Shown here: one piece after another, positions 1 through 15,256 of the stretch
Layout: every line of letters starts with the position of its first letter
Numbering within the stretch: the stretch's first letter is position 1
DNA from: Dehalococcoidia bacterium
GTDB lineage: Bacteria; Chloroflexota; Dehalococcoidia; JAUQQI01
Length of the DNA: 64,000 nt
Reading direction: 5' to 3'
NCBI GenBank assembly: GCA_042408785.1
Contig: JBHOQU010000032.1
Coordinates: forward strand, 26,798 to 90,797
Program-made: the position numbers and the translations under genes
Notes under the pieces: generated by a model
Told to the model about the DNA's origin: nothing
Database searches by the model: none
The model's input: the letters and a program-made list of their open reading frames with translations, nothing else

Positions 1-191
1 AGCTGTTCCCCGATGCCGAATTCCAGCTTTTGATACGGGGGCACTACCTGGCCCTGACAAAGATAGATGACCTTGTCCACCTCTTCCGGCCCGAGCTCCC
101 GGAAGAGCTCGGCCAGAATCTCCACCATCAGGTTCCGGGAAGTGGTCGCCTCCAGCCGGTTAAAGTAGTCGGCCAGCCGCCTGAACAGCAT
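1..191 (-). CDS. ATP-dependent DNA ligase, N-terminal fragment (gene continues past the left edge of the window)
   Basis: Reverse-strand translation from the ATG at complement 189-191 gives MLFRRLADYFNRLEATTSRNLMVEILAELFRELGPEEVDKVIYLCQGQVVPPYQKLEFGIGE. This has the typical N-terminal DNA-binding-domain pattern of ATP-dependent DNA ligases. A GGAGAAAG Shine-Dalgarno-like sequence lies upstream. It is absent from the ORF track because it is truncated. Confidence 0.45.
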   Translation of the reverse strand, partial: MLFRRLADYFNRLEATTSRNLMVEILAELFRELGPEEVDKVIYLCQGQVVPPYQKLEFGIGEQ

Positions 192-263
192 CGCGTCTTT
201 CTCCTGCTGACAGGGTCTCCCCGCGGGATTTTAGCACGGGTATTCGGCACCAGCACGCCCAAG

Positions 264-293
264 TTTTCAACCGGGTTTACCCACTGTTACAAT
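264..293 (+). promoter_or_regulatory. Candidate sigma-A-like promoter for hisH (TTTTCA, 18 nt spacer, TACAAT)
   Basis: Hexamers sit at 264-269 and 288-293, about 15 nt before the hisH ATG. The divergent ligase gene means hisH needs its own promoter here. Confidence 0.25.
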
Positions 294-308
294 GTTTGGG
301 TGGGCCGA

Positions 309-926
309 ATGCTTGCGGTCTTGGACTATGGGGCCGGAAATCTGCGCAGCGTGGTGCGGGCCCTGGAAGTGAACGGCATCCGGCCGGTGGTTTTGGGCGA
401 CCCGGATGCCCTGCTCCGGGCCGATGCCCTGGTCTTTCCCGGGGTTGGGGCCGCCGGATCGGCCATGCGCCGGCTACGGGAGCGGGGCCTGGACGAGGCC
501 GTCCGGGAGTTTTACCGGTCGGGCCGGCCGATTCTGGGCGTCTGTTTGGGCCTGCAGCTGCTCTTTGATTGGAGCGAGGAGGACGGCGGAGCCCCCGGCC
601 TGGGCCTGATACCCGGCGAGGTCCGCCGCTTTCCCGACGGCCTGAAAATCCCCCACATGGGCTGGAACCAGGTCCGCCGCCAAAGAGACCACCCCATCCT
701 GGCCGGTATCCCCGACGGTGCCCATTTCTACTTTGTCCACTCCTACTATGCGGTGCCGGCCGAGCCGGCGGCAGTCGTCGGCACCACCGATTACGGCCGG
801 GACTTTGCCAGCGTGGTTGCCTGGGATAATCTGGTGGCCACCCAGTTCCACCCCGAAAAGAGCGGTCGCTGGGGCCTGGCCGTCTACGGCAACTTTCTGC
901 GGAGGCTGGTGGGCTTAAGGTGCTGA
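309..926 (+). CDS. hisH: Imidazole glycerol phosphate synthase, glutamine amidotransferase subunit HisH
   Basis: Starts MLAVLDYGAGNLRSV; GVCLGLQLL catalytic-Cys motif; HPEKSG near the C-terminus. The ORF-track start at 30 is an upstream extension, so the internal ATG at 309 was chosen. Confidence 0.9.
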   Translation: MLAVLDYGAGNLRSVVRALEVNGIRPVVLGDPDALLRADALVFPGVGAAGSAMRRLRERGLDEAVREFYRSGRPILGVCLGLQLLFDWSEEDGGAPGLGLIPGEVRRFPDGLKIPHMGWNQVRRQRDHPILAGIPDGAHFYFVHSYYAVPAEPAAVVGTTDYGRDFASVVAWDNLVATQFHPEKSGRWGLAVYGNFLRRLVGLRC

Positions 927-1636
927 TCCTGCCGGCCATCGACATCCTGGGCGGCCGCTGCGCCCGCCTTTACCAGGGCCGGTTCGACCGGGTCAGGGTC
1001 TACGCCGACGACCCGGTGGCCGTCGCCCGGGCCTGGGCCGAAGCCGGGGCCTGCTGGGTCCACGTGGTGGACCTGGACGCGGCCCGAACCGGCCAGCCGG
1101 TTAACCTGGGCGTTGTGGCCGCCATCGTCCGGTCGGTGGGGGCGGCCGTTCAGTATGGGGGCGGGGTGCGGAGCCTGGGCCGGGTGGCGGAGCTCCTCGA
1201 CCTGGGGGTGGACCGGGTGGTGGTGGGTACGGCCGCCTTTACCGACCCGGGCTTCCTGGCCGAAGCCTGCCGCCGGTTCGGCGACCGGGTTGCGGCGGCC
1301 CTGGACGTCCGGGACGGGCAGGTGGCCGTTTCAGGCTGGGAGTCGGCCCTGCCCCTCAGCCCCGCTGAGGCTGTGGACCGGCTGGAGGCGGCGGGGGTCC
1401 GGCGGCTGGTGCTGACCGACGTGGGCCGGGACGGCACCCTGGAAGGGGTCAACCTGGACCTGGTCAGGGAGGTCGTTAAGGCGGCGTCGGTGCCGGTCAT
1501 TGTGGGGGGCGGGGTGGGAAGCCTCGGGGACCTCAAGGCCCTCAAGGTCCTGGGGGTGGAGGGAGTGATCCTGGGTCGGGCCCTTTACGAGGGCCGGGTC
1601 GACCTGGGGGCGGCCCTGGCCTGCGGGGCCGATTAG
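920..1636 (+). CDS. hisA: ProFAR isomerase HisA (1-(5-phosphoribosyl)-5-[(5-phosphoribosylamino)methylideneamino]imidazole-4-carboxamide isomerase)
   Basis: [20 protein letters not shown]-terminus and (beta-alpha)8 HisA pattern. The GTG start overlaps the hisH stop. Confidence 0.9.
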
Positions 1637-1644
1637 CTGCCGCC

Positions 1645-2412
1645 ATGCTTACGAAGCGGATAATCCCCTGCCTTGACGTCGATGCCGGCCGGGTGGTTAA
1701 GGGCGTCCGCTTTGCCGGCCTACGGGACGCCGGCGACCCGGTGGAGCTGGCCGCCTACTATGACCGGGAAGGGGCTGACGAGCTGGTCTTTTACGACATA
1801 ACCGCTTCGGCCCAAGGGCGCAAAATCATGGTCGAGGTGGTGGCCCGCACCGCCGACCAGGTCTTTATACCCCTCACCGTCGGTGGGGGCCTGCGCACCG
1901 TCGAGGATATGCGGCTGATGCTCCGGTCCGGCGCTGATAAGGTCTCCATAAACACCGCCGCCATCGAGGACCCGACCCTCATCGCCCGGGGCGCCGACGC
2001 CTTCGGCTCCCAGTGCATCGTCCTCTCCATCGACACCAGGTGGGAGGGGGACCGGCCCCGGGTCTACTCCCACGGCGGCCGCCGGCCCACCGGCCTGGAT
2101 ACGGTGGAGTGGGCCCGGCGGGGGGTGGAGCTGGGGGCCGGCGAAATCGTCCTCAACAGCATCGACACCGACGGTACCCGGGCCGGCTACGACCTGAAGA
2201 TTCTGCGGCTGGTCTCGGAGGCCGTCCCGGTTCCGGTCATCGCCAGCGGCGGGGCCGGAAACCTCGAACACCTCTACCTGGCCATCGCCGAGGGCAGGGC
2301 CGACGCCGTTCTCGCCGCCAGCATCTTTCATTACCGGGAAGTGACCATCGCCGAGGCCAAGCGGTTCCTGGCCGCCCGGGGGATTCCCGTCCGTCTGGAG
2401 GACCTGGGGTGA
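1645..2412 (+). CDS. hisF: Imidazole glycerol phosphate synthase cyclase subunit HisF
   Basis: [23 protein letters not shown]... classic HisF N-terminus and overall pattern. Confidence 0.92.
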
Positions 2413-3290
2413 CCGTCAAGGAAAAATACGGCCGCCTGCCCCCACTGTCCCCGGACATCGAAAGGCGGCTGGCGGCCCTCGCCGAGGTCGTAAGGGGTCA
2501 TCCGGTGGAACTGGTTTACCTGTTCGGCTCGGCGGCCGGAGATGCCGCGGCCGCCCAGGATATCGACCTGGCCGTCCTGCCGGGGGAAGGTTTTTCCCTG
2601 ACCGATTTTTACGCCGACGTATCCCTGGCCCTCGGCACCGACCGGCTGGACATTGTGAACCTGCGGCGGGCCCCGGTCTGGCTCCAGTGGGAATTTGTCA
2701 CCACCGGCCGGCCCATCTTTTCGGGGTCTACGCTCGGCCGCCTGGCCTTCGAACGGTCCGTACGTGCTCGCTATCGGGACGAACGGCCGAGGCTGTTGCG
2801 GGCGGGAATAATCTTTCAGAGGGGGTCGCCGGCGACTTTACGCCGGGAGTTTATCTGGGGCGCCCTTGCCGAACTGCGCCGGGTTGCCGCCGAGCTTGAA
2901 AAATACCGCCACCTTACCCCCGAAGACCTGGGGGCCAACTTGAGCCTGCGCTGGGCCGTCGAGCGGGGACTGCCGGCGGGACTGAGCTTGATTTTCGAAG
3001 TGGCCGACCACATTCTGGTCCGCCACTTCGGGCGGGCCGTCGACACCTACGAAGGGCTCCTGACGGAACTGCGGGCCTGCGGCGTCATCTCCGAGGGCCT
3101 TTACCGTCGGCTGAAAGGGGCCGGCGGCTTTAGAAATATCCTCGTGCACGGGTACCTCCAGGTGGACCTGGGGCGGGTGGCCCGGGCGTTAAAAGAGGCC
3201 CCCGACCTTTTCCGGGCCTTCGAGGATGAGGTCGGCGCCTGGGTAAATTTGCTCCCGGAAGACGGGACAGACGAACCGGGAGGAAGTTAA
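2409..3290 (+). CDS. Fused minimal nucleotidyltransferase (MntA-like) plus HEPN/HepT-like (DUF86) domain protein
   Basis: The N-terminal half carries the Pol-beta NTase motif [19 protein letters not shown] (GS...DxD). The C-terminal half carries FRNILVHGY, the Rx4HxY HEPN RNase motif. The GTG start at 2409 overlaps the hisF TGA (GTGA), and the stop lies 5 nt before the hisIE ATG. The 2013-2408 part of the listed ORF is an out-of-frame overlap with hisF. Confidence 0.7.
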
Positions 3291-3295
3291 AAACT

Positions 3296-3949
3296 ATGGC
3301 CGAGGGTTTAAAGTTTGACCAGGCGGGGCTCATACCGGCCGTCGTCCAAGATGTCGCCAGCGGCCGGGTGCTTATGCTGGGCTACCAGGACCGGGAAGCC
3401 TTTGAGCGGACCCTGGCCAGCGGCCGGGTCTGGTTTTACAGCCGGAGCCGCCAGCGCCTCTGGCAGAAGGGTGAAACCTCCGGCCACGAGCTCCGGGTCC
3501 GGCAGGTGCTGGCCGACTGCGATGGGGATGCTCTGCTCATCCTGGCCGAGCCGGCCGGCCCCACCTGCCATACCGGGTCCGAATCGTGCTTTTTCGAAAA
3601 GGTCGCCGGCCCCGACGAAGGCGACTGGCTGCCCTTAAGCCGGGTTCCCGAGGCCCTTTTTAAAGTTATCCTGGACCGCCAGCAGAATCCGAGGGCCGAA
3701 AGCTACGTGGCGGGGCTCCTGGCCGGCGGGGTCGACCGGGTCGCCCAGAAGCTGGGCGAAGAGGCAGTCGAGGCGGTTATCGCCGCCAAAAACGACGACC
3801 GGGAGGCCCTCGTCCGGGAGCTGGCCGACCTCTGGTTCCACAGCCTGGTGCTAATGGCCGCCCGGGGCCTGCGGCCGGCCGACGTCTGGGCCGAGCTCGC
3901 CCGCCGCCACGCCGCCCGCGCTCGGCCGTCCGGCCAGGAGGGCGTCTAA
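3296..3949 (+). CDS. hisI: Bifunctional phosphoribosyl-AMP cyclohydrolase / phosphoribosyl-ATP pyrophosphatase HisIE
   Basis: The N-terminal PRA-CH domain ([24 protein letters not shown]) is followed by a PRA-PH MazG-like domain ([14 protein letters not shown]). Confidence 0.9.
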
Positions 3950-4663
3950 TTCTAAAAGCTCCTTAAGGTCCCGGATGACCGGCACCCCCGGCGGCGGGTC
4001 CTCCTGCCGGAACTGGTGACTGAGCACCGGCCGAAGGCCGGCCTTTAAGGCCCCGCCCACATCCTCGTAAACCCGGTCGCCCACGAAGACGGCCCGTTCG
4101 GGCCGGACCCCAAGCCGGCTGAGGGCAAACTGGAAGATGGCGGGGTGGGGCTTGCGCCAGCCCACGGCCGACGAGAAGGCCAGCACGTCAAAGTGGCCCT
4201 TAAGGCCGAGTTCCTCCAGGCGGGCTTCCATCAGCTCGGCCGGATACATCGTGTTGGAGACGAGCCCAATCTTAAGCCCACGGCGGCGCAGTTCGGCCAG
4301 GACCGCCGCCCCCGGGGCCGGGCAGGTAGCCGCCAGCTCGGCCCGGGCCATCGCCTCCAGGCACTCCCGGTAAAAGTCCCGGGGCAGGTTTAAACCGAGC
4401 CGGCCGAAGGCCTCGGCAAATAGGGCTTCCGGCGGAAGCTCCCGGTAGCCCCGGGCCTGGAAGTAGGCCAGCCGCCGGCCGAGAATCCGCTCCCAAACCT
4501 CCCGATAAAGGGCCTCGGCCGGGGGGGCCCGGTCGCCGATGAGCCCTTTGAGCCGGCCATGCAGGGCGTTCCACGCCGTCAGCCAGCTATCGGCCGAGAG
4601 CTTTATGTCCCAGACCGTGTGGCCCAGGTCGAGGAGAACGGCCTCAACGGCCCTATCCCCCAC
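3851..4663 (-). CDS. HAD-superfamily hydrolase
   Basis: [10 protein letters not shown] motif I, SNTMYP motif II and [13 protein letters not shown] motif IV. Its 3' end overlaps convergently with the hisIE 3' end. Confidence 0.7.
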
Positions 4664-5438
4664 AGGTAACCTCCAACCGGCCGTCCCGGACCACGAGCCG
4701 CGGAACCTTACGGCTGATATCCACCCGGGCGGCGAATTCCACGTCGGCTCCCAGGCCCAGCTGGGTCAGCCGGTAGCCGTGGGCGCTGGCCCGGAAGGCC
4801 GCCAGGGGGTCCCGGCCGAAGCCGAGGCAGACCTGGCGGGCGGCTACCGCCGAATCGTCCAGCACGAGGCGGTCCGACGGGGTCTGACCGGGAAGGTCGG
4901 CATCGGGGGCCGGCAGGGGTGAAACTTCGGCCCGGCGGGCAAGCTCATCCACCAGGAAGCCGGCGCAGAAGGCGTCGTCCAGGCCGAAGGCCCGGCCGCG
5001 CCCCCGTCCGGCGCAGACCAAAGTCACGTCCCGGCCGGCGGCCAGGATGCGCTCCGCCACCGCCCCCACGTTGGAAAGACAGCCGACCAGCACCTCGGCG
5101 GCCCCCACCGAACGGCGGAGGGCCCGGGTGCCGTTGCTGGTGGCGAAGACCAGGGTCCGGCCGGCCAGATCTGTCCCCAGGTACTCTAGGGGCGAATTGC
5201 CCAGGTCAAAACCCCGGGGCGCCAGGCCCCCGACCTCCCCACCCAGGAGAACGTCGGGCCCCAGTGTCCGGGCGAGCCGCCGGGCAGCCCCGGGCCCCGG
5301 GGCGATGACGGCCCGGGCCAGGCCCCGCTCGAAAGCGGCGACCAGGGTCGTGCTCGCCCGCAGAACGTCGATGACCACGCAGGTCCGGCCGGCCGGATTG
5401 CGCAGCAGTCGGGGCAGAAAGCAGACCTCCACGAACAT
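4653..5438 (-). CDS. 2-phosphosulfolactate phosphatase (ComB) family protein
   Basis: VVIDVLRASTTLVAAF signature of the ComB family. Overlaps the downstream HAD gene by 11 nt. Confidence 0.65.
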   Translation of the reverse strand: MFVEVCFLPRLLRNPAGRTCVVIDVLRASTTLVAAFERGLARAVIAPGPGAARRLARTLGPDVLLGGEVGGLAPRGFDLGNSPLEYLGTDLAGRTLVFATSNGTRALRRSVGAAEVLVGCLSNVGAVAERILAAGRDVTLVCAGRGRGRAFGLDDAFCAGFLVDELARRAEVSPLPAPDADLPGQTPSDRLVLDDSAVAARQVCLGFGRDPLAAFRASAHGYRLTQLGLGADVEFAARVDISRKVPRLVVRDGRLEVTCGG

Positions 5439-15098: not shown

Positions 15099-15172
15099 GC
15101 GCGCCCGGAGGGATTCGAACCCCCGACCCTCTGGTCCGAAGCCAGATGCTCTAGTCCGCTGAGCTACGGGCG
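15099..15172 (-). tRNA. tRNA-Arg (anticodon UCG)
   Basis: Reverse complement folds as a cloverleaf: acceptor GCGCCCG/CGGGCGC, D-arm GCTC..GAGC, anticodon stem TCTGG/CCAGA with loop CTTCGGA, T-arm GGGGG-TTCGAAT-CCCTC. CC but not A of CCA is encoded. Confidence 0.8.
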
Positions 15173-15183
15173 CAGGGGAGCGG

Positions 15184-15256
15184 GGTGGGTGATGGGATTC
15201 GAACCCACAACCTCCTGAGCCACAGTCAGGCGCTCTGCCGTTGAGCTACACCCACC
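15184..15256 (-). tRNA. tRNA-His (anticodon GUG) with encoded G-1 and C73 discriminator
   Basis: Reverse complement is G-GTGGGTG-TA-GCTC..GAGC-G-CCTGA-CTGTGGC-TCAGG-AGGTT-GTGGG-TTCGAAT-CCCAT-CACCCAC-C. Anticodon loop CTGTGGC gives GTG. It sits 11 nt upstream of tRNA-Arg on the same strand. Confidence 0.85.

What the first reader, a model, noticed from the sequence alone, without database searches (positions are those of the whole stretch)
2409..3290. Single-polypeptide MntA-HepT-like (nucleotidyltransferase plus HEPN RNase) fusion embedded in, and translationally coupled within, the hisH-hisA-hisF-hisIE operon
- HisF and HisIE are normally adjacent; here a 293 aa gene sits between them.
- Its GTG start overlaps the hisF stop (GTGA) and its stop lies 5 nt before the hisIE ATG, so it must be co-transcribed and probably co-translated with the histidine enzymes.
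- The protein combines an intact Pol-beta nucleotidyltransferase motif (GS...DID) with an intact HEPN Rx4HxY motif (RNILVHGY). In two-gene HepT/MntA toxin-antitoxin modules these are separate proteins, and MntA AMPylates HepT.
- A covalent fusion wired into an amino-acid biosynthesis operon suggests a cis-autoregulated RNase linked to histidine starvation, or a selfish module using an essential operon as an addiction anchor.
Basis: partly seen in the sequence, partly recalled or inferred. Interest (0 to 1): 0.72.

Follow-up and report, generated by a model that had tools for sequence, protein, structure and literature searches.

The report
Fused MntA-HepT gene inside his operon
A single gene that joins a toxin-type RNase (HepT) to its own neutralising enzyme (MntA) really is wedged between two histidine-biosynthesis genes, but such fusions are already known, and comparison with other genomes suggests a hitch-hiking insertion in one small bacterial lineage rather than a histidine-linked device.

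Summary
ORF 2409..3290 (+) encodes 293 aa. Its GTG overlaps the hisF stop (GTGA) and its TAA lies 5 nt before the hisIE ATG. The N-terminal half is a minimal nucleotidyltransferase (GS-x9-DxD). The C-terminal half is a HepT-type HEPN domain (R242-x4-H247-x-Y249). Pfam, NCBIfam, a profile search of PDB sequences and a fold search all match the solved HepT/MntA complexes.

The fusion is not new. Fused MNT-HEPN proteins were noted in 2013 and characterised in 2026 as FhepTA, which AMPylates itself. This protein belongs to a fused clade found in at least 26 GTDB species and about 46 clusters at 50% identity. Closely related two-gene forms also exist.

The his-operon position occurs only in the window and four close relatives. 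About 10 other homologue contexts are unrelated to histidine, and none of 79 more distant hisF loci carries the gene. The intact copies diverged together with the his genes under purifying selection (dN/dS about 0.25). One relative has a decayed copy that lost both active sites through five in-frame deletions but keeps an open frame into hisIE.

Best reading: a FhepTA-like single-chain type VII toxin-antitoxin gene expressed passively from the his promoter. I call it a new member of a known kind, of modest interest.

The parts
264..293 (+). Only sigma-70-like promoter match in 1..4800 (TTTTCA-18-TACAAT), just upstream of hisH. It is a candidate operon promoter.
   Evidence: This is a consensus match only, not evidence of function.
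309..926 (+). hisH (glutamine amidotransferase subunit), 205 aa
   Evidence: for the ORF. The start was set by comparison with the 205-aa gene calls in L001 and L009 (GATase Pfam).
920..1636 (+). hisA, 238 aa; overlaps hisH by 7 nt
   Evidence: PF00977, E 2.4e-75
1645..2412 (+). hisF, 255 aa; its TGA stop overlaps the GTG start of the fusion gene
   Evidence: PF00977, E 8.9e-82
2397..2401 (+). GGAGG Shine-Dalgarno for the fusion gene, 7 nt before the GTG and inside the hisF 3' end. It is invariant in all five relatives.
   Evidence: invariant columns 17-24, TGGAGGAC
2409..3290 (+). Fused MNT-HEPN (MntA-HepT, FhepTA-like) gene, 293 aa
2490..2789 (+). MNT (minimal nucleotidyltransferase, MntA-like) domain, about aa 28-127. 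It contains GS-x9-DxD (G40, S41, D51, D53; nt 2526-2567) and the acidic residue D81.
   Evidence: the fold matches MntA chains 7bxo_A and 6m6u_A, TM 0.73
2790..2846 (+). Poorly conserved inter-domain linker, about aa 128-146 (pLDDT below 50 at aa 137-142). The codon for A142 (GCG) sits where 20 of 26 homologues have Met, which is the position where stand-alone HepT proteins begin.
2847..3251 (+). HepT-type HEPN RNase domain, about aa 147-281, with R242-x4-H247-x-Y249 (nt 3132-3155). Y249 aligns with the AMPylated Tyr104 of Shewanella HepT.
   Evidence: the fold matches 7ae2_A, 7ae8 and 7ae6, TM 0.86-0.92
3279..3283 (+). GGAGG-like Shine-Dalgarno for hisIE, embedded in the last codons of the fusion gene
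3296..3949 (+). hisIE (PRA-CH plus PRA-PH), 217 aa; starts 5 nt after the fusion gene's stop
   Evidence: PF01502 5.8e-32, PF01503 2.5e-19

Best explanation
The gene encodes a single-chain type VII toxin-antitoxin-like protein of the FhepTA kind.

**Shown here.**
- An N-terminal MntA-type nucleotidyltransferase is joined by a short variable linker to a C-terminal HepT-type HEPN RNase.
- All catalytic residues and the acceptor Tyr are conserved across the family.

**Inferred by analogy with the solved HepT/MntA systems and with FhepTA.**
- The MNT domain uses ATP to (oligo)AMPylate Tyr249, next to the R-x4-H RNase motif, within the same chain.
- Because it is covalently attached, it also hinders the HEPN dimerisation that RNase activity needs.
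- Loss of ATP, removal of AMP, or proteolysis of the N-terminal domain would free a HEPN dimer that cuts RNA and arrests growth.

**Genomic reading.**
- In the ancestor of one small Chloroflexota clade (annotated Dehalococcoidia), this promoter-less gene landed at the hisF-hisIE junction. It has since been inherited vertically.
- It is transcribed from the his promoter as part of a hisHAF-X-IE mRNA. It is translationally chained to hisF (GTGA overlap) and to hisIE (stop 5 nt before the ATG, with the SD inside the gene).
- It is an accessory passenger of the operon, not a histidine-pathway component.
For: **Domains and motifs.**
- Both domains are detected.
- The family profile hits both chains of the solved HepT-MntA complexes 5yep/7aer/7bxo and 7ae2/7ae9.
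- The AF2 model (pLDDT 81.8) matches HEPN toxin chains at TM 0.86-0.92 and MntA chains at TM 0.73.
- G40, S41, D51, D53, H247 and Y249 are invariant. R242 is present in 24 of 26 homologues.

**Precedent.** FhepTA (276 aa, same domain order) self-tri-AMPylates the equivalent Tyr intramolecularly. The full-length protein is non-toxic, while its HEPN domain alone is toxic (PMC13000451).

**Relation to two-gene modules.** Split relatives break exactly at the linker.

**Passenger reading.**
- The his context occurs only in the window and in L001/L015, L009, L010 and L095.
- The other homologue contexts are unrelated to histidine.
- None of the other 79 hisF loci holds the gene.

**Vertical inheritance under selection.** dS is the same as for hisA, hisF and hisIE (0.53-0.65 for window versus L010). 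dN/dS is 0.22-0.32, similar to hisA.

**Dispensability.** L095 carries a copy that has lost DxD, the H201 helix and R242.

**Co-transcription and coupling.**
- The 4-nt overlap and the SD are conserved in all five loci.
- The only promoter-like site lies upstream of hisH, and terminator-like hits are not above the shuffled expectation.
- In the decayed copy, all five internal deletions are in frame, and the terminal frameshift still ends the ORF 16 nt inside hisIE.
Against: - No biochemical or expression data exist for this protein. AMPylation, RNase activity, toxicity and the transcript structure are all inferred.
- The AF2 inter-domain geometry is uncertain (pTM 0.50). The R-x4-H-x-Y loop has pLDDT below 50, so proximity of D51/D53 to Y249 in cis could not be checked.
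- The family does not behave like a typical mobile TA module:
  - There are no hits in 72,556 plasmids, 50,697 phage records or 2.9 million viral contigs.
  - It holds stable, lineage-specific positions among housekeeping genes.
- The NCBIfam MntA model scores just below its cut-off (53.4 versus 60).
- The FhepTA redox cysteines are absent. This protein has one Cys, C225.
Confidence: 0.62

Rival explanations
1. Domesticated housekeeping RNase. The fused protein is no longer a conflict or toxin module. It is a self-regulated, ATP-sensing RNA-processing or RNA-decay enzyme kept as an ordinary chromosomal gene, and the his location is incidental operon packing.
For: - No relatives occur on plasmids, phages or viral contigs.
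- Positions are conserved within lineages among housekeeping genes: ABC permease then gene then DHODH in two Armatimonadota species, and trpA then gene then DPRP in another group.
- The gene is often 3-15 nt from a same-strand neighbour.
- Selection is purifying and comparable to hisA.
Against: - Distribution is patchy, with about 50-59% identity across unrelated phyla and archaea, which suggests horizontal transfer.
- Each lineage has a different locus.
- A distant member lies in a TA island with RES, MazE and Uma2.
- Close two-gene TA-style relatives exist.
- The gene was lost by decay in L095.
Confidence: 0.18
2. Histidine-linked regulator. In this clade the module has been co-opted so that RNase activity responds to histidine or ATP-PRPP status, for example by cleaving his mRNA, tRNA or bulk mRNA during histidine starvation.
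For: - The gene is co-expressed with his enzymes by construction.
- It has been retained under purifying selection at this site since the clade diverged, over dS of about 0.55.
- The MNT domain uses ATP, which is also the substrate of the pathway's first step. This point is general knowledge, not tested here.
Against: - There is no his association outside this clade: 0 of the other 79 hisF loci and 0 of about 10 other family contexts.
- A relative with 98% identical HisF has an inactivated copy and intact hisF and hisIE.
- No his-related regulatory RNA was found in the window.
Confidence: 0.08
3. A two-domain nucleotidyltransferase enzyme, like the aminoglycoside nucleotidyltransferases (ANT/KNTase) or GlnE. 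The HEPN-like domain would be only a substrate-binding module, and the target would be a small molecule or another macromolecule.
For: - Weak full-length structural similarity to AadA and AAD(9): TM about 0.3, rmsd about 10 A.
- Anantharaman et al. 2013 state that HEPN domains fused to MNT typically lack the RNase residues.
Against: - Here the R-x4-H-x-Y motif is kept: H and Y in 26 of 26 homologues, R in 24 of 26.
- The best sequence and fold matches are HepT toxins and MntA antitoxins, not ANT enzymes.
- The NCBIfam HepT_toxin equivalog model is passed.
Confidence: 0.07

Closest known systems
FhepTA (SO_1440, prophage CP4So of Shewanella oneidensis): fused MNT-HEPN type VII toxin-antitoxin (Yao et al., Nucleic Acids Res 2026, PMC13000451)
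   Same: - A single polypeptide of similar size (276 versus 293 aa).
- MNT is N-terminal and HEPN is C-terminal, joined by a short linker.
- The GS-x(9-10)-DxD motif, the R-x4-H motif and the adjacent acceptor Tyr are all present.
- Close two-gene homologues exist.
   Different: - FhepTA sits on prophages and genomic islands with its own promoter. This gene sits inside a biosynthetic operon, and its family gives no hits on plasmids, phages or viral contigs.
- FhepTA has four Cys, and C163 and C270 form a redox switch. This protein has one Cys (C225), which is not conserved in the family.
- The spacer between GS and DxD is one residue shorter.
Two-gene HepT/MntA type VII TA systems (S. oneidensis SO_3166/SO_3165, PDB 5yep/7aer/7bxo; Aphanizomenon flos-aquae HEPN/MNT, PDB 7ae2-7ae9)
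   Same: - Both halves are homologous: profile E 2.6e-15 for MntA and 1.5e-12 for HepT, with folds at TM 0.73-0.92.
- The order is the same, MNT first.
- The catalytic residues and the AMPylated Tyr align.
   Different: - One gene instead of two, so stoichiometry is fixed at 1:1.
- There is no separate antitoxin to turn over.
- The NCBIfam MntA equivalog model scores just under its cut-off.
HEPN-M / DUF86 (PF01934) family, 'occasionally fused to MNT' (Anantharaman et al., Biol Direct 2013, PMC3710099); YutE of Bacillus subtilis (PDB 1ylm)
   Same: - The Pfam family is the same.
- The fusion architecture was already catalogued.
- 1ylm is hit by both the sequence profile and the fold search.
   Different: That survey stated that MNT-fused HEPN domains typically lack the catalytic residues. 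This family keeps them.
Other fused single-gene toxin-antitoxins (CapRel SJ46; fused HicAB)
   Same: The antitoxin and toxin domains are on one chain, with autoinhibition in cis (as discussed in PMC13000451).
   Different: The folds and the chemistry are unrelated. No trigger is known for this protein.

Membership tests
HepT/MntA type VII toxin-antitoxin (HEPN/MNT) | MNT domain with the Pol-beta nucleotidyltransferase motif GS-x(9-10)-DxD plus a third acidic residue | tested here: met
   - G40, S41, D51 and D53 are invariant in 26 of 26 homologues, and D/E81 is conserved.
- Pfam PF18765 E 3.6e-10.
- Profile hit to 5yep_A at 2.6e-15.
HepT/MntA type VII toxin-antitoxin (HEPN/MNT) | HEPN domain of the HepT/DUF86 type with the R-x4-H RNase motif | tested here: met
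   - R242-NILV-H247 is present. H is invariant and R is present in 24 of 26.
- PF01934 E 2.4e-14.
- NCBIfam HepT_toxin 66.8 bits, above the cut-off of 60.
- Fold TM 0.86-0.92 to 7ae2, 7ae6 and 7ae8.
HepT/MntA type VII toxin-antitoxin (HEPN/MNT) | Acceptor Tyr two residues after the catalytic His (R-x4-H-x-Y) | tested here: met
   Y249 is invariant. It aligns with the Tyr of 'RNIAVHDY' in S. oneidensis HepT.
HepT/MntA type VII toxin-antitoxin (HEPN/MNT) | Two adjacent genes, mntA upstream of hepT | tested here: not met
   There is one continuous ORF. The domain order is preserved. Split relatives exist elsewhere.
HepT/MntA type VII toxin-antitoxin (HEPN/MNT) | NCBIfam MntA_antitoxin equivalog score above its cut-off | tested here: not met
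   53.4 bits against a cut-off of 60. This is a near miss, and the model was built on stand-alone proteins.
HepT/MntA type VII toxin-antitoxin (HEPN/MNT) | HEPN is toxic through RNA cleavage and is neutralised by oligoAMPylation | not testable with these tools
   This needs expression, mass spectrometry and RNase assays.
FhepTA (fused MNT-HEPN TA) | Single polypeptide of about 280 aa, MNT at the N-terminus, HEPN at the C-terminus, short linker | tested here: met
   293 aa, with domains at aa 28-127 and 147-281 and a low-confidence linker at aa 137-142.
FhepTA (fused MNT-HEPN TA) | Carried by prophages or mobile genetic islands | tested here: not met
   - The gene lies between hisF and hisIE.
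- There are no plasmid, phage or viral-contig relatives.
- No mobile-element genes appear in the called neighbourhoods of the close relatives.
FhepTA (fused MNT-HEPN TA) | Redox-switch cysteines in the HEPN domain (C163 and C270 in SO_1440) | tested here: not met
   The protein has a single Cys (C225), which is not conserved across the family (the feature is described).
FhepTA (fused MNT-HEPN TA) | Intramolecular self-oligoAMPylation; the MNT domain blocks HEPN dimerisation | not testable with these tools
   Biochemistry is required. The AF2 inter-domain geometry is unreliable (pTM 0.50).
FhepTA (fused MNT-HEPN TA) | Direct sequence relatedness to SO_1440, or descent from the same fusion event | not tested
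   The SO_1440 sequence is not retrievable here. No supplement text is held, and the afdb50 library is unavailable.
Histidine biosynthesis operon component | Conserved co-occurrence with his genes across lineages | tested here: not met
   The gene is absent from the other 79 hisF loci. his neighbours occur only in the one clade.

The most novel reading that the evidence does not exclude
Two readings remain open.

- **Regulator of histidine supply.** In this Chloroflexota clade the fused HepT-MntA has been co-opted as an ATP- or metabolite-sensing RNase. Its dosage tracks his-operon expression, and it shapes the response to histidine starvation.
- **'Translation-locked' passenger (more modest).** Because hisIE initiation depends on ribosomes that finish the insert, the host cannot cleanly delete the gene. 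Even a dead copy must stay an open reading frame. This would be a way for a selfish gene to persist through operon architecture rather than through toxin addiction.
Probability: 0.1. Interest if true: 0.7.

Novelty: new member of a known kind. Interest (0 to 1): 0.34.

Why it matters
If the mechanism holds, this is a natural case of a FhepTA-type single-chain toxin-antitoxin that sits in a core biosynthetic operon rather than on a mobile element and is expressed from that operon's promoter. That widens the known settings of type VII systems. It also gives a family of at least 26 species, many of them MAGs from hot-spring metagenomes (judged from sample and isolate names, not tested), with active-looking fused HEPN domains. 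This runs against the earlier generalisation that MNT-fused HEPN domains are inactive.

The decayed but still in-frame copy in a sister lineage is a small natural experiment. It suggests that translational coupling to the downstream hisIE constrains how such an insert can be lost.

None of this changes what is known about how HepT/MntA works, and no link to histidine metabolism is supported.

Tried and rejected
- **Histidine-pathway role: rejected.** No his linkage exists outside one clade, and a relative carries an inactivated copy.
- **Aminoglycoside-NTase-like enzyme: rejected as the main reading.** The ANT matches are poor (TM about 0.3), and the RNase motif is conserved.
- **Mobile-element carriage: searched three ways with no hits.** These were tblastn against plasmids and phages and a profile-pattern scan of IMG/VR.
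- **Close relatives without the insert: none found.** The HisF metagenome scan gave one relative at 98% and then nothing above 70%, so the pre-insertion state could not be seen directly.
- **Home-made greedy ORF caller for neighbour analysis of 80 genome loci: unreliable.** Antisense ORFs win at high GC. I relied instead on the precomputed gene calls from 12 contig look-ups.
- **AFDB fold search for named fused homologues, including SO_1440:** the library is not installed.
- **FhepTA supplementary sequences:** not held.
- **Other copies and regulatory RNAs in the window.** There is no second MNT or HEPN copy. Rfam found only two tRNAs and no his leader or T-box.
- **PADLOC:** only two weak hits, E 0.002-0.006, to PDC-S09. 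These were not pursued.
Full report
**1. What is in the sequence**

ORF 2409..3290 (+) encodes 293 aa.
- Its GTG (2409-2411) overlaps the hisF stop (TGA 2410-2412).
- A GGAGG lies 7 nt upstream, at 2397-2401.
- Its TAA (3288-3290) is followed after 5 nt by the hisIE ATG (3296). The GGAGG-like hisIE ribosome-binding site (3279-3283) lies inside the last codons of the ORF.
- The frame is open back to 2013. Twenty-four of 26 homologues start with M-x-V-[KR]-E-K-Y at the position of 2409, and gene calls in three relatives use the same 4-nt overlap, so the proposed start is sound.

The neighbours are hisH (309..926), hisA (920..1636), hisF (1645..2412) and hisIE (3296..3949). The only sigma-70-like match in 1..4800 is at 264-293, just upstream of hisH. 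Terminator-like matches are not above the shuffled expectation.

**2. What the protein is**

Sequence-family matches:

| Library | Model | Region | Score |
|---|---|---|---|
| Pfam | Polbeta nucleotidyltransferase PF18765 | aa 28-105 | E 3.6e-10 |
| Pfam | HepT-like PF01934 | aa 159-270 | E 2.4e-14 |
| NCBIfam | HepT_toxin equivalog | aa 153-271 | 66.8 bits, cut-off 60: passes |
| NCBIfam | MntA_antitoxin equivalog | aa 31-127 | 53.4 bits, cut-off 60: narrowly misses |

- A profile of 26 homologues hits both chains of the solved S. oneidensis complex: MntA 5yep_A at 2.6e-15 and HepT 5yep_B at 1.5e-12. It also hits the Aphanizomenon HEPN/MNT structures.
- An AlphaFold2 model has mean pLDDT 81.8 and pTM 0.50. 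It is low in the linker (aa 137-142) and in the R-x4-H-x-Y loop (aa 242-250).
- The model matches HEPN toxin chains at TM 0.86-0.92 and MntA chains at about 0.73.
- In the family alignment G40, S41, D51, D53, H247 and Y249 are invariant, and R242 is present in 24 of 26. Y249 aligns with the Tyr that MntA AMPylates in Shewanella HepT.
- Both halves therefore look catalytically competent, and the acceptor site is kept.

**3. The fusion is a known architecture**

- Anantharaman et al. (2013, PMC3710099) list the DUF86/HEPN-M family as 'occasionally fused to MNT'.
- Yao et al. (2026, PMC13000451) characterised a fused MNT-HEPN, FhepTA (SO_1440, 276 aa):
  - it tri-AMPylates the equivalent Tyr within a monomer;
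  - the full-length protein is non-toxic, while its HEPN domain alone is toxic;
  - the MNT domain blocks HEPN dimerisation;
  - two extra cysteines add a redox switch.
- The window protein has the same layout. It has one non-conserved Cys (C225) and a one-residue shorter GS...DxD spacer.

**4. How large the family is**

- The 5.8-billion-protein search found 26 full-length fused homologues at 38-92% identity.
- An exhaustive profile search of 1.84 billion cluster representatives gave 10,992 clusters at E of 1e-3 or better, 2,037 at 1e-10 or better and 69 at 1e-30 or better.
- Of the best 150 clusters, about 46 are full-length fusions. About 100 are proteins of 126-157 aa that match either profile positions 1-135 or 142-282 from their first residue.
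- One of these, P0050 (144 aa, MntA-like), is followed with a 4-nt overlap by a 143-aa HepT-like gene in a Thermotogaceae MAG.
- Among the best 80 GTDB species loci:

| Pattern | Loci |
|---|---|
| One full-length match (fused) | 26 |
| MNT and HEPN matches, in different frames in all but one locus (two genes) | 36 |
| HEPN only | 14 |
| MNT only | 4 |

- The fused members come from Chloroflexota (Thermoflexus, Anaerolineae, Ardenticatenaceae), Armatimonadota, Acidobacteriota, Tectomicrobia and a methanogenic archaeon. Most are MAGs whose names point to hot-spring samples.
- Identities of about 50% across phyla suggest horizontal spread.

**5. Is the his location general?**

No.
- Only the window and its four closest relatives have his neighbours. 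These are L009 (92% protein identity), L001/L015 (88%; 'Dehalococcoidia bacterium H24_334'), L010 (79%) and L095.
- Homologues at 59% identity or less lie in other settings:
  - alone between transporter genes;
  - 3 nt after smpB in Thermoflexus japonica;
  - 15 nt after an ABC permease in two Armatimonadota species;
  - between trpA and a DPRP gene;
  - beside a 2-oxoacid dehydrogenase operon;
  - for a 39% member, in an island with RES, MazE and Uma2 genes.
- A HisF-based scan of metagenomes returned 80 loci, and none outside the clade carries the gene.
- Of 53 loci with hisI(E) downstream, 42 have hisF and hisI(E) adjacent and 11 have some insert. One of the 11 is L095 itself, and three hold a HAD-type hydrolase.
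- After the 98% relative, the next HisF is 70% identical or less. The insert-free ancestral junction therefore could not be observed.

**6. Evolution inside the clade**

Nei-Gojobori estimates among the four intact copies:

| Gene | dN/dS | dS, window vs L010 |
|---|---|---|
| Fusion gene | 0.22-0.32 (0.56 for the closest pair, few changes) | 0.53 |
| hisA | 0.26-0.33 | 0.53 |
| hisF | 0.02-0.12 | 0.65 |
| hisIE | 0.12-0.20 | 0.58 |

- dS is essentially the same for all four genes. The insertion therefore predates the clade, and the gene is kept by selection.
- GC content is slightly lower than the neighbours (0.64-0.67 against 0.67-0.76).

**7. A decayed copy**

L095 (identical to protein P0008) has HisF 98% and HisIE 93% identical to the window. 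Its copy of the insert is 234 aa.
- Five internal deletions of 9, 33, 21, 42 and 69 nt remove the DxD motif, the strand after D78, the linker and the HEPN helix that carries the invariant H201.
- The RNase motif reads GAFGDILVHGY, so the Arg is lost.
- dN/dS against the nearest intact copy rises to 0.49.
- The deletion ends show short direct repeats (read), as expected of real slippage events.
- All five internal deletions are multiples of three, which has a probability of about 0.004 if frame were irrelevant (my arithmetic).
- A sixth deletion, 22 nt near the 3' end, shifts the frame so that the ORF stops 16 nt inside hisIE.
- Two inferences follow. The protein's activities are dispensable. 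Keeping ribosomes on this stretch may matter for hisIE expression through coupling or avoidance of polarity. The second is a hypothesis, not a result.

**8. Mechanism proposed**

- Shown: the domain identities, the conserved catalytic and acceptor residues, the operon packing and the lineage restriction.
- Inferred from HepT/MntA and FhepTA:
  - cis (oligo)AMPylation of Y249 by the MNT domain using ATP;
  - steric prevention of HEPN dimerisation;
  - RNase release on ATP depletion, de-AMPylation or N-terminal proteolysis.
- Inferred from anatomy: expression from the his promoter, and translational chaining hisF to X to hisIE.
- I put about 0.6 on this overall reading and about 0.9 on co-transcription.
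- I put about 0.08 on a genuine histidine-linked function.

**9. Novelty and interest**

- The architecture and its likely chemistry are known.
- New here is a well-populated fused clade with intact RNase motifs, which appears not to be carried on plasmids or phages.
- One lineage of that clade has the gene wired into a his operon, and a sister lineage has an in-frame relic.
- This is a new member of a known kind with an unusual address. It is worth a note for TA specialists but does not open a new question.

Noticed in passing
L095:1614-2318 (= P0008); equivalent to window 2409-3290: A sister lineage (HisF 98% identical) carries a decayed copy. Five in-frame deletions (9, 33, 21, 42 and 69 nt) remove DxD, the linker and the H201 helix, and R242 is changed to Gly. 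A 22-nt terminal deletion makes the ORF end 16 nt inside hisIE. The frame stays open although both activities are lost.
   Followed up: yes
window 2832-2834 (codon A142); alignment A1 column of residue 142: At the MNT/HEPN boundary, 20 of 26 fused homologues keep a Met exactly where stand-alone HepT proteins start. Several have a G-rich SD-like run 6-9 nt upstream (L002 GGAGG, L011 GGGGGG, L003 GGGGG). In L009, L001 and L010 the codon is GTG with GGGGG 6 nt upstream. In the window it is GCG. This may be a vestigial or still-used internal start for free HepT.
   Followed up: partly
window 3851-3949: hisIE (+, ends 3949) and a HAD-family hydrolase (-, ORF 3851..4663) overlap convergently by 99 nt. 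The same overlap is called in relatives L001 and L009, and it is 105 nt in L010.
   Followed up: no
L096:1106-1822, L107:3780-4511, L109:3806-4507: In more distant lineages (HisF 61-68%) the hisF-hisIE junction holds a HAD-type hydrolase of about 235 aa, possibly a histidinol-phosphatase. The junction therefore accepts inserts elsewhere. The window's own HAD gene is only weakly similar (24-38% over parts).
   Followed up: partly
L003:3571-5864 (Candidatus Thermoflexus japonica BEHY01000023): The fused homologue starts 3 nt after smpB. A separate two-gene NTase (PF01909) plus HEPN (PF05168) pair lies immediately upstream of smpB. FhepTA of Shewanella sits in a prophage integrated in the tmRNA gene, so a shared tmRNA/SmpB neighbourhood may be coincidence or an island hot-spot.
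   Followed up: no
L180-L182 (soil metagenome contigs around P0026): The most distant fused homologue (39% identity) lies in a toxin-antitoxin-rich island with RES-domain, MazE-like and Uma2 genes. The members at 48-59% identity sit among housekeeping genes instead.
   Followed up: no
window 15100-15255 (-): Two adjacent tRNA genes are the only Rfam matches at gathering threshold in the 64-kb window. No his leader, T-box or riboswitch was detected upstream of hisH.
   Followed up: no
window 1-308 and L001, L009, L010 upstream regions: The operon here contains only hisH-hisA-hisF-X-hisIE and diverges from an ATP-dependent DNA ligase gene on the opposite strand (seen in the relatives). hisG, hisD, hisC and hisB are not adjacent.
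   Followed up: no
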